A DNA stretch of 60,779 nt from an uncultured Methanosarcinales archaeon. Lineage in GTDB: Archaea; Nanobdellota; Nanobdellia; Woesearchaeales; GW2011-AR9. A program made the position numbers and the translations under genes. The first letter of the stretch is position 1. Every line of letters starts with the position of its first letter. Positions 22,175 to 49,829 of the stretch are shown piece after piece. The DNA lies in NCBI GenBank assembly GCA_964598745.1, contig CAZRCV010000004.1:1-60779 (forward strand), written 5' to 3'. The notes below the pieces were generated by a model, which was not told the DNA's origin, did no database searches, and saw only the letters and a list, made by a program, of their open reading frames with translations.

Positions 22175-22419
22175 GTTTGGAACAAAAAATTAAAGATAAT
22201 CGCAAACTAACTAATCATAAACCAACTTACCAGCTGCAACCACTGGATTTCTTACCGATACCAGGTTTTGGTTTGCTTCGTTTTGGCCTTAGAAACAGAA
22301 AACATGATTTTCCAATAACAGCTAGTGTAGAATATTTTACTAACATGGCTGTATTACTGGTTTACAACAGCATCTTAACCGTTGCGCCATTATACGTTAT
22401 GAGAGAATACTTTATTTAA
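22171..22419 (+). CDS. Small hypothetical membrane protein
   Basis: 82 aa with an ATGA overlap to the methyltransferase gene and a hydrophobic C-terminal segment. It overlaps the gatB 3' end by 8 nt. Confidence 0.35.
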   Translation: MSLEQKIKDNRKLTNHKPTYQLQPLDFLPIPGFGLLRFGLRNRKHDFPITASVEYFTNMAVLLVYNSILTVAPLYVMREYFI

Positions 22420-23824
22420 TCAGCTGTTTCATGATATCACTAACTAGCTGCGGCGAAGCCTTGCCTCGGCTAAGTTTCATCACTTGCCCAATTAAGAAGT
22501 TTAAAGATTTTTCACTGCCAGATTTATAATCTGCAACTGCAGCCTGGTTTTCATCAATTACCTTAATACAAAAACGCTGCAATTCCGAATTATCGCTTAT
22601 TTGCTGCAAATGATGCTGTTCAACATATTGTTTTGGCGAAAATGGCTTAATCATCAGTTCTTCTATAATCTTCTGGGCAGTGTCATCAGAAATACTGTTA
22701 GCAGCAACTAATTGCAATAGTTCTATCAGCTGCTCTGGTGAGAACTTGATGTCAGCAGCAGTTTTCTTATGAAAGTTAAGAACCCGTAATAACTCTTTGC
22801 GCATCCATTTGGCAGCTAATGGCGGATCAATTTTTTGAGCTACTGTTTCAAATAACTGAGCTAAATCTAAATCCATGGACATAACCTCGGCATCAGCCGG
22901 ATCCAACTTAAAGTTCTTGGTATAGCGATGGGATTTTTGGTATGCCAGTTCTGGCAGTTGTGATTTGAGTTGCTGTAACCAATCACGACCTAACTCTACT
23001 ATCGGCAAATCTGGTTCAATGATATAACCATAATCAGCTTCTGTTTCCTTGAGGCGCAGAGGGTAAGTAAAATTAGTTTGATTATCCCATCCCCTGGTTT
23101 CCTGAACCAATTTTTTGCCTTCAGCGGCTAGCTGTTTCTGGCGATTAATTTCACTGCCCAACGCCTTTTCTAACTCTTTAAATCCAGTAATGTTTTTTAT
23201 TTCCACTCGTGTGTAATTAGTTTCCTTTATGGAAACATTAGCATCAGCCTTAATAATACCATGATTTAAATCAAAAATTTTGAGGTAAGCAATAATACTA
23301 ATTAACTGGTTTAAGAAATCCCTGGCTTCTTCCGGTGAAGTTAATTCCGGTTTGGTTACAATTTCAATGAGTGGATTTCCCGAGCGGTTGTAGTCGATTA
23401 AGCAATAGGATGATTGGCGCATGGCTAAAGGATAGCTGATAGCTGCCGGATCTTCTTCCATATGCACGCGAATCAGGCTAACTTCACGGCCGGATTTAAG
23501 GTGAACTGATCCTTCCAAGCCTAGCGGCTCTTCAAATTGGGTAATTTGAAAATTTTTGGACATATCAGGGTAAAAGTAACTTTTTCTGGAAAAAATTACT
23601 TTGCTGGCTAACTTGGAATTAACGGCTAAACAGAATTTGCTGGCATACTCTAATGCTTTCTGGTTAATAACCGGCCGAGCTCCAGGATGCCCCAGGCAAA
23701 CTGGACAACAGCGGCTGTTTGCTTCTTCACTGCCTTGAGTGGGACAACTGCAGAACAATTTCGTGGCGGTATTTAATTGCACATGAACTTCCAATCCGAT
23801 TACCACTTCTGAAGTAAAGTTCAT
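22412..23824 (-). CDS. gatB: Asp/Glu-tRNA amidotransferase subunit B
   Basis: 470 aa, EVVIGLEVHVQLNTATKLFC... and a C-terminal GatB/YqeY tail. Confidence 0.9.
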   Translation of the reverse strand: MNFTSEVVIGLEVHVQLNTATKLFCSCPTQGSEEANSRCCPVCLGHPGARPVINQKALEYASKFCLAVNSKLASKVIFSRKSYFYPDMSKNFQITQFEEPLGLEGSVHLKSGREVSLIRVHMEEDPAAISYPLAMRQSSYCLIDYNRSGNPLIEIVTKPELTSPEEARDFLNQLISIIAYLKIFDLNHGIIKADANVSIKETNYTRVEIKNITGFKELEKALGSEINRQKQLAAEGKKLVQETRGWDNQTNFTYPLRLKETEADYGYIIEPDLPIVELGRDWLQQLKSQLPELAYQKSHRYTKNFKLDPADAEVMSMDLDLAQLFETVAQKIDPPLAAKWMRKELLRVLNFHKKTAADIKFSPEQLIELLQLVAANSISDDTAQKIIEELMIKPFSPKQYVEQHHLQQISDNSELQRFCIKVIDENQAAVADYKSGSEKSLNFLIGQVMKLSRGKASPQLVSDIMKQLIK

Positions 23825-25170
23825 GTTAACTCCTCTACTAATTGTAAAAATCGCAGCAAGGCTCCTTCATGCAGGTGATCAGCACAAGCCATTAAACCCA
23901 CCGGTAACCCTTCTACTGAACCAATAGGGATACTAGCATGCGGCACACCAGCCAGGTTTGGGCCAACAGTGAGGATGTCCATCAAATAATTTTCTAATGG
24001 AGTCATCTTTTTTACTTCAGAAAATTTTGGCGCAATTACCGGCATGGTGGGAGAAATCAGTAAATCATAAGTTTCAAATAATTTTTTATATTCCTCAATA
24101 ATTTTGGTTCTAACTTTAGTAGCTTTAAGATAATAAGCTTCACGATATCCAGCCATCCGGGCAAAGGTTCCTAGGATAATGCGGCGTTTGCTTTCCCGGT
24201 CAAAATGCTGGCTCCTGATTTCAGTAAAATATTTTCCGAAAGTTTTATTTTTGGGATTGCTTTCCTGGCCATAACGCAGGCCGCAAAATCGCGCTAAATT
24301 ACTAGAGGCTTCCGAGGTGGAAATAATATAATAAGTCGGGATGCCGTAAGTAAAAGTAGTCGGCATGGAGACAGATTTTAGTTCATGCCCTTGCTGCTTT
24401 AATTTCTCAATAACATTGATGATTAAGTTTTTAATGGCTGGATCAATGCCTTTTCCCAAACTTTCCTTAATGATGCCAATTTTTAAAATACCAGATTTTA
24501 CTTTAAAGTTAATTGGCTGCCGCAAGGAGGTAGCATCTTGTTGATCATGGCCGGAAATAATCTCCAGCACGGGTTTAATCTGTGAAACAGTTTTAGCCAT
24601 TAAGCCAATTTTGTCTAAAGAATCCGCATAAGAAATTAATCCATAGCGGCTTACGCTGCCATAAGTGGGACAAAAGCCAACCACTCCGCAAAAAGCAGCA
24701 GGGCTTTCAATGCTGCCACCTGTGGTTTCAGTAATAGCTACATGGTTAAATGAAGCTAGCTTGGTGATACCGGCGCCGCCGCCAGAAGAACCACCAGTTA
24801 CGCGGGTTACATCAATAGGATTTTTTGGCACAGGATAATCCAAACCAACATTGATATTAAAACTGCCAAAGCCAAAGGCATCCTGCGCAGTTTTACCGAT
24901 AACTATGGCTCCGGCTTCCTTCAGCCTGCGAACTACCGTAGCATCAAATAATGGCTTGTAGCCTTTAAGAATTCTTGATCCAGCAGTGCTTTCTACTCCC
25001 TTGACACACAGGCAATCTTTAACACTGACAAATAATCCTTTCAATGGCCCTTGTGCTTTTCCAGCCTGCTGCAACGCTTCCTGTTCACAAATTACATTAA
25101 AATAAGAGTATTTTTCGTTGATTTGTCGGCATTCTTCCAAGATGTTCTTAGTTTCATGAATCAGGGACAT
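23821..25170 (-). CDS. gatA: Asp/Glu-tRNA amidotransferase subunit A
   Basis: 449 aa with the amidase signature (GGSSGGGAG). 4-nt overlap with gatB. Confidence 0.9.
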   Translation of the reverse strand: MSLIHETKNILEECRQINEKYSYFNVICEQEALQQAGKAQGPLKGLFVSVKDCLCVKGVESTAGSRILKGYKPLFDATVVRRLKEAGAIVIGKTAQDAFGFGSFNINVGLDYPVPKNPIDVTRVTGGSSGGGAGITKLASFNHVAITETTGGSIESPAAFCGVVGFCPTYGSVSRYGLISYADSLDKIGLMAKTVSQIKPVLEIISGHDQQDATSLRQPINFKVKSGILKIGIIKESLGKGIDPAIKNLIINVIEKLKQQGHELKSVSMPTTFTYGIPTYYIISTSEASSNLARFCGLRYGQESNPKNKTFGKYFTEIRSQHFDRESKRRIILGTFARMAGYREAYYLKATKVRTKIIEEYKKLFETYDLLISPTMPVIAPKFSEVKKMTPLENYLMDILTVGPNLAGVPHASIPIGSVEGLPVGLMACADHLHEGALLRFLQLVEELT

Positions 25171-25639: not shown

Positions 25640-25758
25640 CGCCCCCAACCAGACTTCAACTGGTGACCTTTACCGGTTATTGCTAACTTGCGGTATCAGC
25701 CTATAAGGTAACAGCTTCGTGGTAATCTCGCACGCTCTACCTGCTAAGCTATGGGGGC
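25640..25758 (-). tRNA. tRNA-Asn(GUU) with three introns (13, 14 and 19 nt)
   Basis: Hand fold. Acceptor GCCCCCA/TGGGGGC with G73, D arm GCTT/GAGC, T arm ACCAG-TTGAAGT-CTGGT. Removing 25728-25716, 25708-25695 and 25688-25670 yields anticodon arm TGCGG-CUGUUAA-CCGCA and variable loop AGGTC, a 73-nt cloverleaf. Anticodon at 25712-25710. No encoded CCA. Confidence 0.7.
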
Positions 25759-25841: not shown

Positions 25842-27611
25842 ATGTTAAGAACACACACATGTGGCGAATTGACGTTAAAGAATGAAAACCAGGTGGTAAC
25901 ACTGTGCGGTTGGAATCATTCTCGCCGAGATCATGGAGGAATAATTTTTATCGACCTGAGAGACCGTTATGGCCTAACACAGTTAGTTTTCGATCCTGAC
26001 CATAATTTGGAAACTCATGTCCGCGCGGAAAAACTGCGCAGGGAAGATTGCCTTAAAGTAACTGGCAAGGTAAGATACCGCGGCCAAGGATTGGAAAACC
26101 AGCATTTGCCTACTGGAGAAATTGAGATCATCGTAGATGAATTGGATATCCTAAACAGCGCTGAAACTCCGCCGTTAGAAGTTGATGATCGCAAGGAAGC
26201 TTCCGAGGAAATGCGGCTAAAATACCGTTATTTAGATTTGCGCCGGCCAATTATGCAAAAACATTTACTAGTTCGCCATCAAGTTTTGCAAGCCTGCCGG
26301 GAATTGCTCGATAAGGAAGGATTTACAGAAATAGAAACGCCGATGCTAGTTCGTTCTACTCCGGAAGGGGCGCGTGATTATTTAGTGCCATCGCCATTTC
26401 ATCCCGGGCAAGTTTATTCGCTTCCGCAGTCGCCGCAAATTTACAAGCAGCTGCTGATGGTGGCGGGAATGGACAAGTACTACCAAATTGCTCGCTGCAT
26501 GAGAGCCGAAGATTCGCGCTCAGACCGGCAGCCAGAATTTACCCAATTGGATATTGAACTGAGTTTCGTGGATGAAGAGGACATTTATGCTATAGGTGAA
26601 AAACTATTTTATCACATCATGAAGAAAGTAAAAGGCATTGAGATAAAAACACCTTTTCGAAGAATGTCCTATGCTGAATCTATGGTTAAGTATGGTTGTG
26701 ATAAGCCAGACCTGCGTTTTGGCTTGGAACATCTAGATGTTTCTGAAATTGCCCAAAGCAGCGATTTTTCTGTGTTCAAGTCTGCAGTAGATAAGGGAGG
26801 AATAGTAAAATGTATCAATGCTAAAGGAGCCGGTTTGGCCTTTTCGAGAAAAGAAATTGATGCTCTGATTGCTTATGCTCAAAATTTAGGCGCGGCTGGC
26901 TTAGCTTGGATGAAAATGACCCCGCAAGGATTAGAATCATCCATTTGCAAATTCTTTAAGCCAGAACTGCAAAACATTTTAACTAAAAAAATGCAAGCGC
27001 AAGCCGGAGATTTATTATTATTCTGCGCTGGCGAAGAAAAATCAGTGCATAATGTAATGTGGAAAGTGCGCTTGAAGTTAGGTGATGATCTAAAACTAAT
27101 AAATCAGGATGAGTTTAACTTTTGTTGGATCAATCAATTTCCTATGTTTGAATGGAATACTGATGAAGGAAAGTGGGAAGCTATGCATCATATCTTTACC
27201 ATGCCTCGTGATGAAGATATGAAATATTTAGAAGAAAATCCAGGTAATGTGCGTGGCAAGTTGTACGATTTAGTGCTTAACGGAATTGAACTATGCTCTG
27301 GTTCAATTAGAATCAACCGGCCGGAAATTCAAGAGCGAGTAATGAAGGTTATTGGTATGAGCCTGGAAGAAGCGCAAGAAAAATTTGGGTTTTTATTGAA
27401 TGCTTTCAAATACGGAGCTCCGCCTCACGGGGGGTTTGCGCCAGGATTAGACCGGTTTGTGATGTTGATTGAAAAATTGGATAACATTAGGGATGTAATT
27501 GCTTTCCCTAAAAACAAGAACAAGGAAAGCCCCATGGATGGTTGTCCCTCCGCCTGGAATGCTAAAGACTTGAAAGAAAATTACCTAAAGTTAGAATTGC
27601 CTAAAAAGTAA
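25842..27611 (+). CDS. aspS: Aspartyl-tRNA synthetase, bacterial type (possibly non-discriminating)
   Basis: 589 aa with an N-terminal OB fold, class II motifs (FRAEDSRSDRQPEFTQLD; GGFAPGLDR) and the large bacterial insertion domain between motifs 2 and 3. Confidence 0.9.
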   Translation: MLRTHTCGELTLKNENQVVTLCGWNHSRRDHGGIIFIDLRDRYGLTQLVFDPDHNLETHVRAEKLRREDCLKVTGKVRYRGQGLENQHLPTGEIEIIVDELDILNSAETPPLEVDDRKEASEEMRLKYRYLDLRRPIMQKHLLVRHQVLQACRELLDKEGFTEIETPMLVRSTPEGARDYLVPSPFHPGQVYSLPQSPQIYKQLLMVAGMDKYYQIARCMRAEDSRSDRQPEFTQLDIELSFVDEEDIYAIGEKLFYHIMKKVKGIEIKTPFRRMSYAESMVKYGCDKPDLRFGLEHLDVSEIAQSSDFSVFKSAVDKGGIVKCINAKGAGLAFSRKEIDALIAYAQNLGAAGLAWMKMTPQGLESSICKFFKPELQNILTKKMQAQAGDLLLFCAGEEKSVHNVMWKVRLKLGDDLKLINQDEFNFCWINQFPMFEWNTDEGKWEAMHHIFTMPRDEDMKYLEENPGNVRGKLYDLVLNGIELCSGSIRINRPEIQERVMKVIGMSLEEAQEKFGFLLNAFKYGAPPHGGFAPGLDRFVMLIEKLDNIRDVIAFPKNKNKESPMDGCPSAWNAKDLKENYLKLELPKK

Positions 27612-40365: not shown

Positions 40366-40673
40366 TAATAAATAAATTTTAATTATTAAACTGTTTTCTG
40401 GTTTTGAATAACATTGACTCTAAAAAATTGTTATATTAACAGCATGAATACCAGAAGGAACTGAAGTAGTTGTAAACTATCATCAGAGATGTAGTAATGG
40501 TAGTTTATGTACAAGTAGTTATAGATATGCAAGAGGAGATGCATTAATTCCTAAAAAAAGAAATTAGGGAATATTCTTTTTGATAATAATATTAATTTTA
40601 ATAATTCTCTTGTAACCATTTTTAAAATTTAGAACTTATATTGCGTATATACTCCGCTTAAACATAAAAAGGA

Positions 40674-40834
40674 TGTGGGCGGCAGGGTTCGAACCTGCGT
40701 AGGGACTAACCCACTGGGTATCTTCCAGTCACAGCAGTAATGCTCAGCATACCCGCTGCCAGTTTGGCCTAAGCTTAGCCTAATTATTCTCCTGAACAAT
40801 TAACCAGCCCGTTTGACCACTCCGGCACGCCCAC
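40674..40834 (-). tRNA. tRNA-Leu(UAG), class II, with two introns (29 nt at 30/31; 48 nt at 37/38)
   Basis: Hand fold. Acceptor GTGGGCG/CGCCCAC with A73, D arm CCG-GAGTGGTCAAA-CGG, long variable arm TGGGTTAGTCCCTAC, T arm GCAGG-TTCGAAC-CCTGC. Removing 40803-40775 and 40767-40720 gives anticodon arm CTGGG-CUUAGGA-CCCAG, 84 nt mature. Anticodon at 40771-40769. Confidence 0.75.
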
Positions 40835-40984
40835 GCTAATTTTAAAATTACAGTTTTTAATCTTGTTTTTATATGTTTCTATCAAAATGGTTCTTTGCTT
40901 AACAGGATAGGTAGTTTATTCTAATTTGGGAATAATATTATCTTTTTCATAACACTTAAAAACAGCAGATAATCATTGCCTGTG

Positions 40985-48739: not shown

Positions 48740-49312
48740 ATGGATAACAAATCGAAGATTATTGGTTATTTAGGAAAGCACCTTAGAGAAAGTTATACTA
48801 TGCATGAGCTAAGTAAATTGTTAAACATTCCTTATGCTTCTTTTTACAGAACAATTCAAGGTATGAACGACCTTTTAACAATTAAAACTGTAGGAAAATC
48901 TAAAATAATAACATTAAACTCTAAAAATCCAGTAATTAAATCACATTTGGTAATTGCTTCTGATGAAGAAAAGAAGGAATTTTTAAGGAAGCAACCAATA
49001 ATCAAAAAATTAAAGGAAGAATTGGATACTAAAAGTATTGTTTTTGTTTTTGGCAGTTACGCGAAGGGGAAAGAAACTGAAAAAAGTGATATAGATATTT
49101 TAATTATTAACAAAGGCGGTAAGAAAGATTTGTCTTTCTCAAAGTATGAATTTTTATTCAAGAAAAAAATTAATCCAATATTTATTAGCATTAAAGAATT
49201 CAAGAAAATGTTAAAAGATAAAGAAGAAAATGTTGGAAAGCAAGCCCTAAAAAATCATATTATACTTATTAATGAAGAACAATTTTGGGAGTGTGTTTTA
49301 GATGCCTTTTGA
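48740..49312 (+). CDS. wHTH plus minimal nucleotidyltransferase (MNT-type) protein
   Basis: N-terminal HTH-like segment, then the NTase motif VFVFGSYAKGKETEKSDIDILII. Confidence 0.7.
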   Translation: MDNKSKIIGYLGKHLRESYTMHELSKLLNIPYASFYRTIQGMNDLLTIKTVGKSKIITLNSKNPVIKSHLVIASDEEKKEFLRKQPIIKKLKEELDTKSIVFVFGSYAKGKETEKSDIDILIINKGGKKDLSFSKYEFLFKKKINPIFISIKEFKKMLKDKEENVGKQALKNHIILINEEQFWECVLDAF

Positions 49313-49829
49313 TAAAAAAGTATATGAACAATTGTTCAAGGAATGCCTAACAGATAGAAGGATAAAAAAATCTGAAGAATCCTTTAAGATCAAATTGTTT
49401 TTACAAAAAGGAGAAAATAGTTTACTTATAGCAAAAGAGATGAAAGAAAAGAAACCAAGTAGGGATGAGCCTGCTAAGATTTATTGGAATTATTGGGCAA
49501 TTACGATTTCTTATTATTCGATGTCGTATGCTGCGAAAGCGGCTATTCTTTCAAAAGGTTATGAAGTTTCTGATCATGATGCAGCTCAAATTTCCTTAGG
49601 TCATTTGTTAATTCCAGATGAATTAGAAAAAGAAGATTTGGAAATTCTCAATCAAGCTCATAAAATCCTTGAGGATGAATATGTGCATTATTTTGAAGAT
49701 GCAAAAAGGGAAAGTCACATTGCAAGATATTCAGCGATTAAGACTTATACCGAAAGAAGATTAGAAGAAATTTTTGAAAACGCTAGGAAATTTGTTGCAA
49801 AGATAACGTTGATGTTACAAGATAGATAA
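49302..49829 (+). CDS. HEPN-domain protein
   Basis: 11-nt overlap with the NTase gene. HEPN helices YWNYWAITISYYSMSYAAKAAILSKGYEVSDHDAAQ and RESHIARY. Confidence 0.6.
   Translation: MPFDKKVYEQLFKECLTDRRIKKSEESFKIKLFLQKGENSLLIAKEMKEKKPSRDEPAKIYWNYWAITISYYSMSYAAKAAILSKGYEVSDHDAAQISLGHLLIPDELEKEDLEILNQAHKILEDEYVHYFEDAKRESHIARYSAIKTYTERRLEEIFENARKFVAKITLMLQDR

What the first reader, a model, noticed from the sequence alone, without database searches (positions are those of the whole stretch)
40674..40834. Class II tRNA-Leu(UAG) with two introns, one in a G-U-containing self-complementary BHB at 30/31
The RNA reads GTGGGCG-TG-CCG-GAGTGGTCAAA-CGG-G-CTGG[29 nt]G-CTTAGG[48 nt]A-CCCAG-TGGGTTAGTCCCTAC-GCAGG-TTCGAAC-CCTGC-CGCCCAC-A. 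Intron 1 forms GGCT/[GGT]/TAATT-loop-AATTA/GGCT/[AAG]. Its central 4-bp helix is GGCU paired with GGCU (two G-C and two G-U pairs), an exact helix-bulge-helix-bulge geometry. Intron 2 is at canonical 37/38, with CTTA/GAAG (one A-G mismatch) and an internal hairpin CAGC...ATGC-TGA-GCAT...GCTG. The mature length of 84 nt fits a class II tRNA.
Basis: seen in the sequence. Interest (0 to 1): 0.65.

Follow-up and report, generated by a model that had tools for sequence, protein, structure and literature searches.

The report
Archaeal leucine tRNA with two introns
This is a real leucine tRNA gene of a tiny groundwater archaeon (Woesearchaeota), interrupted by two short protein-spliced introns; this is a known archaeal feature, and it mainly matters because ordinary tRNA finders miss such genes.

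Summary
On the minus strand of 40674-40834 lies a 161-nt gene. Removing 29 nt (tRNA position 30/31) and 48 nt (37/38) gives an 84-nt class II tRNA-Leu(UAG). ARAGORN calls the spliced form, but ARAGORN and Rfam find no tRNA in the unspliced window.

Thirteen intron-less orthologues in Woesearchaeota/Nanoarchaeota MAGs read exactly ...GGGCTGG|GCTTAGG|ACCCAG..., which validates both junctions. Thirteen distinct versions of intron 1 keep the same geometry. Exon GGCU(25-28) always pairs with intron GGCU, GGCC or GGUC. The bulges are GG+N and A(A/U)+G31. The inner hairpin has unrelated sequences (94% of cells paired; 8 of 9 pairs compensatory).

Intron 2 is a canonical-position BHB intron with a relaxed fourth pair. 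Intron 1 lacks an outer exon helix (relaxed HBh' type), and its helix borrows D-stem and anticodon-stem bases. The two motifs are therefore mutually exclusive and splicing must be sequential.

Position 30/31, multi-intron tRNAs and disrupted tRNAs in DPANN are all documented. This is a new member of a known kind. No RNA data exist for it, and no splicing endonuclease gene lies in the window.

A second gene at 25640-25758 is tRNA-Asn(GUU) with three mini-introns.

The parts
40866..40880 (-). Archaeal promoter-like element 32-46 nt upstream of the tRNA 5' end: AGAAAC (BRE-like) followed by ATATAAAAA (TATA-like).
   Evidence: Read directly from the sequence. The closest orthologue L034/L041 has GAAACATATAAAAAA at the same distance. 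Most other orthologues have RAAAC-(C)TTTTTAA or -TATAAAAA in the same place. Promoter function is inferred.
40804..40834 (-). Exon 1: tRNA positions 1-30 (acceptor 5' strand GUGGGCG, D arm, G26, C27-G30).
   Evidence: Identical to the 5' part of the orthologues.
40806..40809 (-). GGCU (G25 G26 C27 U28): the exon strand of the central 4-bp helix H of the intron-1 BHB.
   Evidence: Pairs with intron GGCU here and with GGCC or GGUC in relatives. 13 of 13 distinct sequences are fully paired.
40775..40803 (-). Intron 1, 29 nt, at tRNA position 30/31. Its layout is U + hairpin UAAUUGUUC-AGGA-GAAUAAUUA (40781-40802) + GGCU (40777-40780) + AA. The 5' bulge is G29 G30 U (40803-40805) and the 3' bulge is A A G31 (40774-40776).
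   Evidence: Intron-less orthologues join G30 directly to G31.
40768..40774 (-). Exon 2, 7 nt, GCUUAGG: G31, C32, U33, anticodon U34 A35 G36, G37.
   Evidence: ARAGORN reads anticodon tag in the spliced form.
40720..40767 (-). Intron 2, 48 nt, at the canonical position 37/38. Its GAAG (40722-40725) pairs with C32 U33 U34, with A35.G as a mismatch. The bulges are G36 G37 C and A U A38.
   Evidence: In 16 distinct orthologous introns the -6..-3 bases pair with C32 in 16/16, U33 in 15/16, U34 in 15/16 and A35 in 7/16.
40674..40719 (-). Exon 3: A38, anticodon-stem 3' strand CCCAG, long variable arm, T arm GCAGG-UUCGAAC-CCUGC, acceptor 3' strand, discriminator A73. CCA is not encoded.
   Evidence: The exons are 84/84 identical to the closest orthologue L034/L041.
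40666..40670 (-). T5 run, 3 nt after the discriminator; likely transcription stop.
   Evidence: Read directly from the sequence. Terminator function is inferred.

Best explanation
This is a functional, single-transcript gene for a class II tRNA-Leu(UAG) of a Woesearchaeota (DPANN) archaeon. Two endonuclease-type (bulge-helix-bulge) introns, only 7 nt apart, interrupt it.

Proposed pathway:
1. Transcription starts from a BRE/TATA promoter about 35 nt upstream and stops at the T5 run.
2. The archaeal splicing endonuclease EndA cuts in the 3-nt bulges on either side of a 4-bp helix.
3. For intron 1 (30/31) that helix is exon G25-U28 (GGCU) paired with intron GGCU. It is extended by a 9-bp intron hairpin but has almost no outer exon helix, which makes it a relaxed HBh' motif.
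4. For intron 2 (37/38) the helix is C32-U34(A35) paired with the intron's GAAG, stacked on the anticodon stem.
5. The intron-1 helix uses bases that belong to the D stem and anticodon stem, and intron 2 needs the intact anticodon stem. The two motifs therefore cannot exist together, so the RNA must be cut, ligated (RtcB-type ligase), refolded and cut again.
6. Folding energies favour intron 1 first.
7. The CCA end is added afterwards.

Shown here: the sequence, the structural potential, the conservation and covariation, and the exact junctions in intron-less orthologues. Inferred: the splicing itself, the enzymes, the order and the promoter.
For: The spliced product is a clean tRNA-Leu(tag) cloverleaf with a 5-bp anticodon stem CUGGG/CCCAG, loop CUUAGGA, a long variable arm and A73.

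A genome scan found 28 Woesearchaeota/Nanoarchaeota loci with the same 5' exon. Thirteen are fully intron-less and read GGGCTGG-GCTTAGG-ACCCAG. ARAGORN called tRNA-Leu(tag) in 12 of the 13 (L006, L012, L014, L015, L018, L019, L022, L026, L028, L030, L031 directly; L020 and L024 carry the same gene sequence as L006). Rfam RF00005 matched the three that were scanned (L006, L012, L014) at 56-58 bits.

Thirteen distinct intron-1 sequences (22-31 nt) all show GG+N / end-to-end hairpin / GGCU|GGCC|GGUC / A(A|U)+G31. On alignment A1, 94.3% of cells are paired against 75% in shuffles and 26-55% when the partners are slid. Eight of nine hairpin pairs have changes on both sides. Helix H is 100% paired with G-C/G-U exchanges.

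In the closest orthologue L034/L041 the exons are 84/84 identical, while intron 1 is 21/29 identical and intron 2 is much more diverged.

The intron-2 pairing with the anticodon loop is kept in 16 distinct introns.

The intron-1 BHB fold lies only 2.7-3.1 kcal/mol above the minimum-energy fold. The intron-2 BHB lies 20 kcal/mol above it before intron 1 is removed and 7 kcal/mol above it afterwards.

The DNA is identical in three independent runs.

Literature: 30/31 is a listed non-canonical intron site (PMC4090602). DPANN lineages carry EndA with an extra L3 loop, associated with many disrupted tRNA genes (PMC5829648). Closely spaced introns that need sequential removal are known (PMC8450103).
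Against: There is no RNA evidence: no transcriptome run holds the sequence, so the spliced product and the order of splicing are unobserved.

No EndA or RtcB gene lies in the 60.8-kb window among the 60 ORFs of at least 130 aa that were scanned, so the enzyme of this organism was not examined.

Intron 1 lacks the outer helix, and in this gene intron 2 has an A35.G mismatch and only about 2 bp of inner helix next to the 5' bulge. Both are relaxed substrates.

Neither BHB is the minimum-energy fold.

Whether the genome also holds an intron-less copy of tRNA-Leu(UAG) cannot be told from one window.
Confidence: 0.9

Rival explanations
1. It is a decaying pseudogene: a former tRNA-Leu gene broken by two unrelated insertions and no longer made into a working tRNA.
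For: Standard finders do not see it. Both splice motifs are relaxed. There is no RNA evidence.
Against: The exons are 84/84 identical to the closest orthologue while the introns diverge. The insertions sit at the same two positions in many lineages, with structure-preserving covariation. A conserved promoter-like element and a T-run flank the gene. The spliced form is a flawless cloverleaf.
Confidence: 0.04
2. The exon structure is different: a single 79-nt intron gives an 82-nt tRNA with anticodon AAU (ARAGORN's intron mode), or intron 1 alone is retained.
For: ARAGORN -i reports tRNA-Ile(aat) with one 79-nt intron at 40674-40834.
Against: That parse gives a class II 'Ile' tRNA with an A34 anticodon, a G.U-closed weak anticodon stem and no BHB at its borders. 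Intron-less orthologues read CUUAGGA (anticodon UAG) at exactly this place. A73 plus the long variable arm is the Leu pattern (established tRNA identity rules for archaeal Leu). With intron 1 removed, ARAGORN itself finds Leu(tag) with a 48-nt intron.
Confidence: 0.01
3. The gene is genuine, but the two introns are removed in the opposite order (canonical intron first), or by recognition that does not use the GGCU/GGCU helix.
For: In vitro, the canonical intron of M. kandleri pre-tRNA-Glu is removed before the non-canonical one by three different EndAs (PMC5829648). The energy differences are only model predictions.
Against: In the primary transcript the intron-2 BHB with an anticodon stem split by a 29-nt hairpin lies about 20 kcal/mol above the minimum-energy fold, whereas the intron-1 BHB lies 2.7 kcal/mol above it. 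The G-C/G-U exchanges in the intron strand of H keep pairing with exon GGCU in 13/13 variants, which argues that this helix is the one under selection.
Confidence: 0.25

Closest known systems
Non-canonical-position BHB introns of archaeal tRNA genes (Marck & Grosjean 2003; Sugahara et al. 2008; reviewed in PMC4090602)
   Same: A protein-spliced intron defined by a 4-bp helix flanked by 3-nt bulges, sitting outside 37/38. Position 30/31 is explicitly listed among known sites. The relaxed HBh' form is known.
   Different: The host is a Woesearchaeota (DPANN) archaeon rather than Crenarchaeota/Thermoproteales. The exon strand of the helix is G25-U28, so one D-stem pair and two anticodon-stem pairs must open.
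Multi-intron tRNAs of Thermoproteales, e.g. Pyrobaculum islandicum tRNA-Pro(UGG) with introns at 25/26, 37/38 and 56/57 (PMC4090602)
   Same: One canonical intron plus non-canonical ones in a single gene. Introns are so close that one must go before the next motif can form (PMC8450103). Presence and absence vary among close relatives.
   Different: Here the two introns are only 7 nt apart, leaving a micro-exon that holds the whole anticodon. No sign of a shared, transposed intron sequence between different tRNAs was found or systematically sought.
Disrupted tRNA genes of DPANN archaea and their EndA variants (ARMAN-2 epsilon2 EndA, PMC3239211; survey including a Woesearchaeota MAG, PMC5829648)
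   Same: Same superphylum. The survey reports alpha4-type EndA with an L3 loop together with many disrupted tRNAs, and says that undetected disrupted tRNA genes remain.
   Different: That work does not, in the text I read, describe this tRNA-Leu(UAG) intron pair. The EndA of the present organism was not seen.
Split tRNA-Lys(CUU) of Nanoarchaeum equitans and Staphylothermus, split at 30/31 (PMC4090602)
   Same: The same position in the anticodon stem is the break point. N. equitans is in the same GTDB phylum as Woesearchaeota-type archaea.
   Different: Those are two separate genes joined in trans. Here it is one transcript with a cis intron, and a different tRNA.
Methanopyrus kandleri pre-tRNA-Glu(UUC), with a canonical intron plus an HBh' intron in the D loop (PMC5829648)
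   Same: A strict or near-strict canonical BHB combined with a relaxed HBh' motif in one precursor. Sequential processing was shown in vitro.
   Different: The position differs (D loop versus 30/31), and that organism's EndA lacks the specificity loop.

Membership tests
Archaeal endonuclease-spliced (BHB) tRNA intron: intron 1 at 30/31 | Central 4-bp helix H between an exon strand and an intron strand | tested here: met
   GGCU(25-28) pairs with intron GGCU as two G-C and two G.U pairs. 13 of 13 distinct orthologous introns have 4 of 4 pairs (GGCU, GGCC, GGUC).
Archaeal endonuclease-spliced (BHB) tRNA intron: intron 1 at 30/31 | Two 3-nt bulges, each carrying a splice site after its second base | tested here: met
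   The bulges are G29 G30|U and A A|G31. The same layout is found in all 13 variants (GG|N and A(A/U)|G). The geometry rule is taken from PMC4090602 and established knowledge.
Archaeal endonuclease-spliced (BHB) tRNA intron: intron 1 at 30/31 | Flanking helices h (exon-exon) and h' (intron) of the strict hBHBh' motif | tested here: not met
   h' is present (9 bp; 8 of 9 pairs covary). h is only G24-C32, followed by a C.U mismatch. The motif is therefore the relaxed HBh' form, which is itself a recognised member class.
Archaeal endonuclease-spliced (BHB) tRNA intron: intron 2 at 37/38 | Anticodon-loop bases 32-35 pair with intron bases -6..-3; bulges 36, 37, i1 and i-2, i-1, 38; anticodon stem as outer helix | tested here: met
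   CUU pairs with AAG, plus an A35.G mismatch. Across 16 introns the pairing is C32 16/16, U33 15/16, U34 15/16, A35 7/16. The outer helix CUGGG/CCCAG exists once intron 1 is out. The inner helix next to the 5' bulge is only 2 bp in this gene.
Archaeal endonuclease-spliced tRNA introns (both) | Removal restores a canonical cloverleaf identical to intron-less orthologues | tested here: met
   ARAGORN calls the spliced 84-mer Leu(tag). Thirteen intron-less orthologues have the exact junction sequence.
Archaeal endonuclease-spliced tRNA introns (both) | The spliced RNA exists and the excised (often circular) introns exist | not testable with these tools
   No RNA run holds the sequence. Only DNA metagenomes do.
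Archaeal endonuclease-spliced tRNA introns (both) | The genome encodes an EndA able to cut relaxed motifs, and an RtcB-type ligase | tested here: inconclusive
   No Pfam EndA or RtcB hit among the 60 window ORFs of at least 130 aa that were scanned. The rest of the genome is not available. The literature reports L3-loop EndA in DPANN.
Class II tRNA-Leu | Long variable arm, Leu anticodon, A73 discriminator, normal D and T arms | tested here: met
   ARAGORN cloverleaf of the spliced form: variable arm UGGGUUAGUCCCUAC, anticodon UAG, A73, T loop UUCGAAC.
Group I / group II self-splicing tRNA introns | Intron of hundreds of nt with a ribozyme core | tested here: not met
   The introns are 29 and 48 nt. 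Rfam finds no intron family anywhere in the window.

The most novel reading that the evidence does not exclude
The canonical intron may do more than be removed. In the long intron-2 family (window, L034, L039, L029, L032) a conserved core survives while the flanks diverge. This core, GGGURU..NNGA-GCA[hairpin]UGC-NRUGAMU..AAGAY, has the layout of a kink-turn: a D'-like NUGA/NNGA box, a short capped stem and a C'-like RUGA box, which is the arrangement L7Ae-type proteins bind. In the window gene, intron 2 also carries a decoy CUGG that pairs with the 3' strand of the anticodon stem (CCAG) in the predicted fold. That frees exon GGCUGG to form the intron-1 splice motif. Intron 2 could therefore act as a built-in folding device, possibly protein-bound, that enforces the order 'intron 1 first, then intron 2' and so protects the 7-nt micro-exon from being lost.
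Probability: 0.1. Interest if true: 0.55.

Novelty: new member of a known kind. Interest (0 to 1): 0.3.

Why it matters
The value is practical rather than conceptual. In this 60.8-kb window both tRNA genes (Leu and Asn) are invisible to ARAGORN's default mode and to Rfam's tRNA model because of five short introns. tRNA complements of Woesearchaeota MAGs will look incomplete unless BHB-aware, iterated searches are used, which is the problem flagged in PMC5829648.

The comparative set gathered here holds the same tRNA-Leu(UAG) with no intron, intron 1 only, intron 2 only, both, or an added T-loop intron, sometimes behind identical acceptor stems. It is a compact natural series for studying gain and loss of archaeal tRNA introns outside Thermoproteales. 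It also offers defined relaxed substrates for testing what the L3-loop EndA of DPANN archaea can cut.

Tried and rejected
- ARAGORN default mode and Rfam, at gathering score and at E up to 10, find no tRNA in the window. This is a failure of the tools on disrupted genes, not evidence against the gene.
- ARAGORN intron mode gives Ile(aat) with one 79-nt intron. I rejected this parse.
- Exact look-ups of two window proteins in the assembly index found nothing.
- I looked for the orthologous tRNA by synteny next to TopA homologues (about 75% identity; L001-L004). It failed because the neighbourhood is rearranged and no tRNA is there.
The genome scan was therefore limited to intron 1 of 0-30 nt and the metagenome scan to 10-40 nt, so the frequencies (7 of 28 genome loci with intron 1) are biased lower bounds. 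One metagenome hit (L035) is a different Leu tRNA and was discarded.
- The search for RNA runs returned none.
- No EndA or RtcB was found in the window.
- I considered a box C/D guide RNA in intron 2 and rejected it. The stretch between the box-like motifs is a hairpin, not a guide.
- A kink-turn reading fits the conserved bases, but it competes with the intron's own 5'/3' helix, which shows two compensatory pairs (L034 versus L029/L039). This is unresolved (and direct reading).
- The apparent covariation between intron GGGU(A/G)U and the last intron base (U/C) rests on one event and was not taken as evidence.

Full report
**What is in the sequence.**
All segments are present exactly as given:
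- exon 1: 40804-40834
- intron 1: 40775-40803, 29 nt
- exon 2: 40768-40774, GCTTAGG
- intron 2: 40720-40767, 48 nt
- exon 3: 40674-40719

Joining the exons gives an 84-nt sequence that ARAGORN folds as tRNA-Leu(tag). It has a 7-bp acceptor stem, a 5-bp anticodon stem CUGGG/CCCAG, the loop CUUAGGA, a long variable arm, the T loop UUCGAAC and discriminator A. CCA is not encoded. A T5 run follows 3 nt after the discriminator, and an AGAAAC-ATATAAAAA element lies 32-46 nt upstream.

The unspliced gene is invisible to ARAGORN's default mode and to all Rfam families, even at E up to 10. ARAGORN's intron mode offers a single 79-nt intron and 'Ile(aat)', which is structurally poor and biologically implausible.

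The DNA is identical on contigs from three independent groundwater metagenome runs.

**Whose gene it is.**
The neighbouring topoisomerase I has its best named relatives (66-69% identity) in 'Candidatus Woesearchaeota' / 'Nanoarchaeota' MAGs. The window encodes archaeal translation and information-processing proteins: eIF2-gamma, an archaeal-type ThrRS editing domain, prefoldin, GINS and ribosomal proteins. The host is a DPANN archaeon of the Woesearchaeota type from groundwater.

**Comparative test of the exon structure.**
I scanned one genome per GTDB species with the 5' exon, a gap of 0-30 nt, then GCTTAGG. This gave 28 loci, all in Woesearchaeota/Nanoarchaeota-type MAGs.
ARAGORN calls tRNA-Leu(tag) in the eleven of these that I scanned directly, and L020 and L024 carry the same gene sequence as L006. 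Rfam's tRNA model matches the three I scanned (L006, L012, L014) at 56-58 bits.
- The intron-bearing orthologues are missed, like the window gene.
- Seven genome loci carry an insertion of 24-30 nt at the same 30/31 position.
- A metagenome scan (gap 10-40 nt) added six more distinct versions.
- All combinations occur: no intron, intron 1 only (L007, L021, L036, L038), intron 2 only (L016, L023, L025, L027, L029, L032, L009), and both (window, L005, L008, L010, L013, L017, L033, L034, L037, L039).
- Some carry an extra intron in the T loop (L011, L016, L029, L036, and L034/L041 at 59/60).
- Identical acceptor stems occur with and without introns, for example GTGCGGG in L014 and L038, and GTGGGAG in L019 and L017. 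Gain or loss is therefore recent and repeated.

**Structure of intron 1.**
In all 13 distinct versions the layout is the same:
- exon G25 G26 C27 U28
- a bulge G29 G30 plus the first intron base
- a hairpin that pairs from end to end
- four intron bases: GGCU, GGCC or GGUC
- two bases, AA or AU
- then G31

Every variant of the four intron bases still pairs with exon GGCU. On alignment A1 the named structure has 94.3% of cells paired, against 75.1% in column shuffles (0 of 500 reach it) and 26-55% when partners are slid by 1-3 columns. Eight of the nine hairpin pairs show changes on both sides. Helix H is 100% paired, with G-C/G-U exchanges on the intron side.

This is the archaeal bulge-helix-bulge geometry, with each cut after the second base of a 3-nt bulge. 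The geometry follows PMC4090602, which states that the first two anticodon bases lie in the 4-bp helix for canonical introns.

The outer exon-exon helix is practically absent: G24-C32 is followed by a C.U mismatch. The motif is therefore the relaxed HBh' kind rather than the strict form. What is conserved is complementarity to the exon.

**Structure of intron 2.**
The intron sits at the canonical 37/38 site. Its bases -6 to -3 (GAAG) pair with C32, U33 and U34, and A35 faces G. The bulges are G36 G37 C and A U A38. The anticodon stem is the outer helix.

In 16 distinct orthologous introns (13-74 nt) the pairing is kept for C32 in 16/16, U33 in 15/16, U34 in 15/16 and A35 in 7/16.

The inner AUGC/GCAU part is not conserved. 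The outer GCAG/CUGC part has one compensatory change in L034 (GCAA/UUGC).

**How it most likely works.**
Shown: two conserved BHB-type motifs whose removal restores the tRNA.

Inferred: EndA cuts the four sites, an RtcB-type ligase joins the exons, RNase P and a 3' nuclease trim the ends, and CCA is added.

The helix of intron 1 uses G25 (D stem) and C27 and U28 (anticodon stem), and puts G29 and G30 in a bulge. Intron 2 needs the anticodon stem 27-31/39-43. The two motifs exclude each other, and the exon between them is only 7 nt, so cutting, ligation and refolding must be sequential.

With ViennaRNA:
- The intron-1 motif lies 2.7 kcal/mol above the minimum-energy fold of the primary transcript, and 3.1 kcal/mol above it after intron 2 is removed.
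- The intron-2 motif lies about 20 kcal/mol above the minimum-energy fold in the primary transcript, and 7 kcal/mol above it after intron 1 is removed.

This favours intron 1 first. It is a model result only. In vitro work on another archaeal precursor found the canonical intron removed first (PMC5829648).

**Comparison with what is known.**
- Non-canonical intron positions, including 29/30 and 30/31, relaxed HBh'/hBH motifs, and genes with up to three introns are well documented. Split tRNA-Lys genes of N. equitans break at 30/31 (PMC4090602).
- A survey that included a Woesearchaeota MAG reports alpha4-type EndA with an extra L3 loop in DPANN lineages, associated with many disrupted tRNA genes. 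It notes that undetected disrupted genes remain (PMC5829648).
- tRNAscan-SE 2.0 iterates its intron search because close introns can hide each other's BHB. Its BHB models were trained on Crenarchaeota/Euryarchaeota and Thaumarchaeota (PMC8450103).

The finding is therefore a well-supported new member of a known kind, not a new kind.

**Limits.**
- No RNA data exist for this sequence.
- No EndA or RtcB is in the window.
- The collection scans required exact exon matches and bounded intron lengths, so intron frequencies are not unbiased.

**Other things seen.**
- The only other tRNA gene I could find in the window (25640-25758, minus strand) is tRNA-Asn(GUU), with three mini-introns.
- The long intron-2 family has a conserved kink-turn-like core.
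- Both are listed under Noticed in passing.

Noticed in passing
window 25640-25758, minus strand: A second disrupted tRNA gene. ARAGORN's intron mode mis-calls it Ile(gat). Removing AGATTACCACGAA (13 nt, position 30/31; helix CGUG(25-28)/CACG, no inner hairpin), CCTTATAGGCTGAT (14 nt, 37/38) and a 19-nt insert in the variable region gives a perfect 73-nt tRNA-Asn(GUU) with G73. The 19-nt insert is best placed at 43/44 as AGTTAGCAATAACCGGTAA, with helix ACCG(38-41)/CGGU and hairpin GUUA-GCAA-UAAC. The gene lies beside AspRS (25842-27611) and GatA/GatB (22412-25170). It shares the 30/31 site and the 'AA|N' 3' bulge with the Leu gene.
   Followed up: partly
window 40720-40767 (intron 2), and the same intron in L034/L041, L039, L029, L032: The long intron-2 family keeps a core, GGGURU..NNGA-GCA[3-5 bp hairpin]UGC-NRUGAMU..AAGAY, while the rest diverges. 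The two GA steps around a capped stem with a 3-nt bulge have the layout of a kink-turn (a D'-like box, then a hairpin, then a C'-like box). This competes with a 5'/3' intron helix that shows two compensatory pairs. Function unknown (direct reading).
   Followed up: partly
window 40720-40834, minus strand (predicted folds): In the minimum-energy fold, the 5' end of intron 2 (GGCCA..CUGGC) pairs with the D-arm bases UGGUC and GCCGG. An intron-2 CUGG pairs with the anticodon-stem 3' strand CCAG as a decoy stem-loop. Both leave exon GGCUGG free for the intron-1 motif. Conservation is only partial: CUGG is also in L032, and 3 bp are kept in L034.
   Followed up: partly
L034 and L041 (the same sequence); also L011, L016, L029, L036, L009: The closest orthologue (exons 84/84 identical) has a third intron of about 87 nt in the T loop at 59/60. 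Four other orthologues also have T-loop insertions. L009 has a 74-nt intron at 37/38 plus an insertion in the variable arm.
   Followed up: partly
run X7, contig laid on window 40714-40807; run X5, contig on 40765-40827: Another community member has a Leu-type tRNA with a different anticodon stem (CAUGG/CCAUG). It carries a 14-nt insert, AAGAUAAUUGCUAA, at the same 30/31 position, with UGCU pairing to exon GGCA and the same AA|G bulge. Its loop would read CUAAGGA (anticodon AAG), which is odd for an archaeon. Separately, an X5 contig shows the window's intron 1 with 4 extra bases in the hairpin loop.
   Followed up: no
window 40866-40880, and the same distance upstream in L005-L042: A purine-rich box followed by a TATA-like box (RAAAC + TTTTTAA or TATAAAAA) sits about 30-45 nt upstream of most orthologous tRNA-Leu genes. 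It looks like a conserved archaeal BRE/TATA promoter.
   Followed up: partly
window 48740-49829, plus strand: Adjacent, slightly overlapping ORFs with a nucleotidyltransferase (Polbeta/NTP_transf_2) domain and a HEPN domain. This is the usual minimal NTase-HEPN toxin-antitoxin-like pair.
   Followed up: no
L001 7861-11616: In a related contig the CDC48-type AAA ATPase downstream of TopA carries an intein with a LAGLIDADG domain (precomputed Pfam hits).
   Followed up: no
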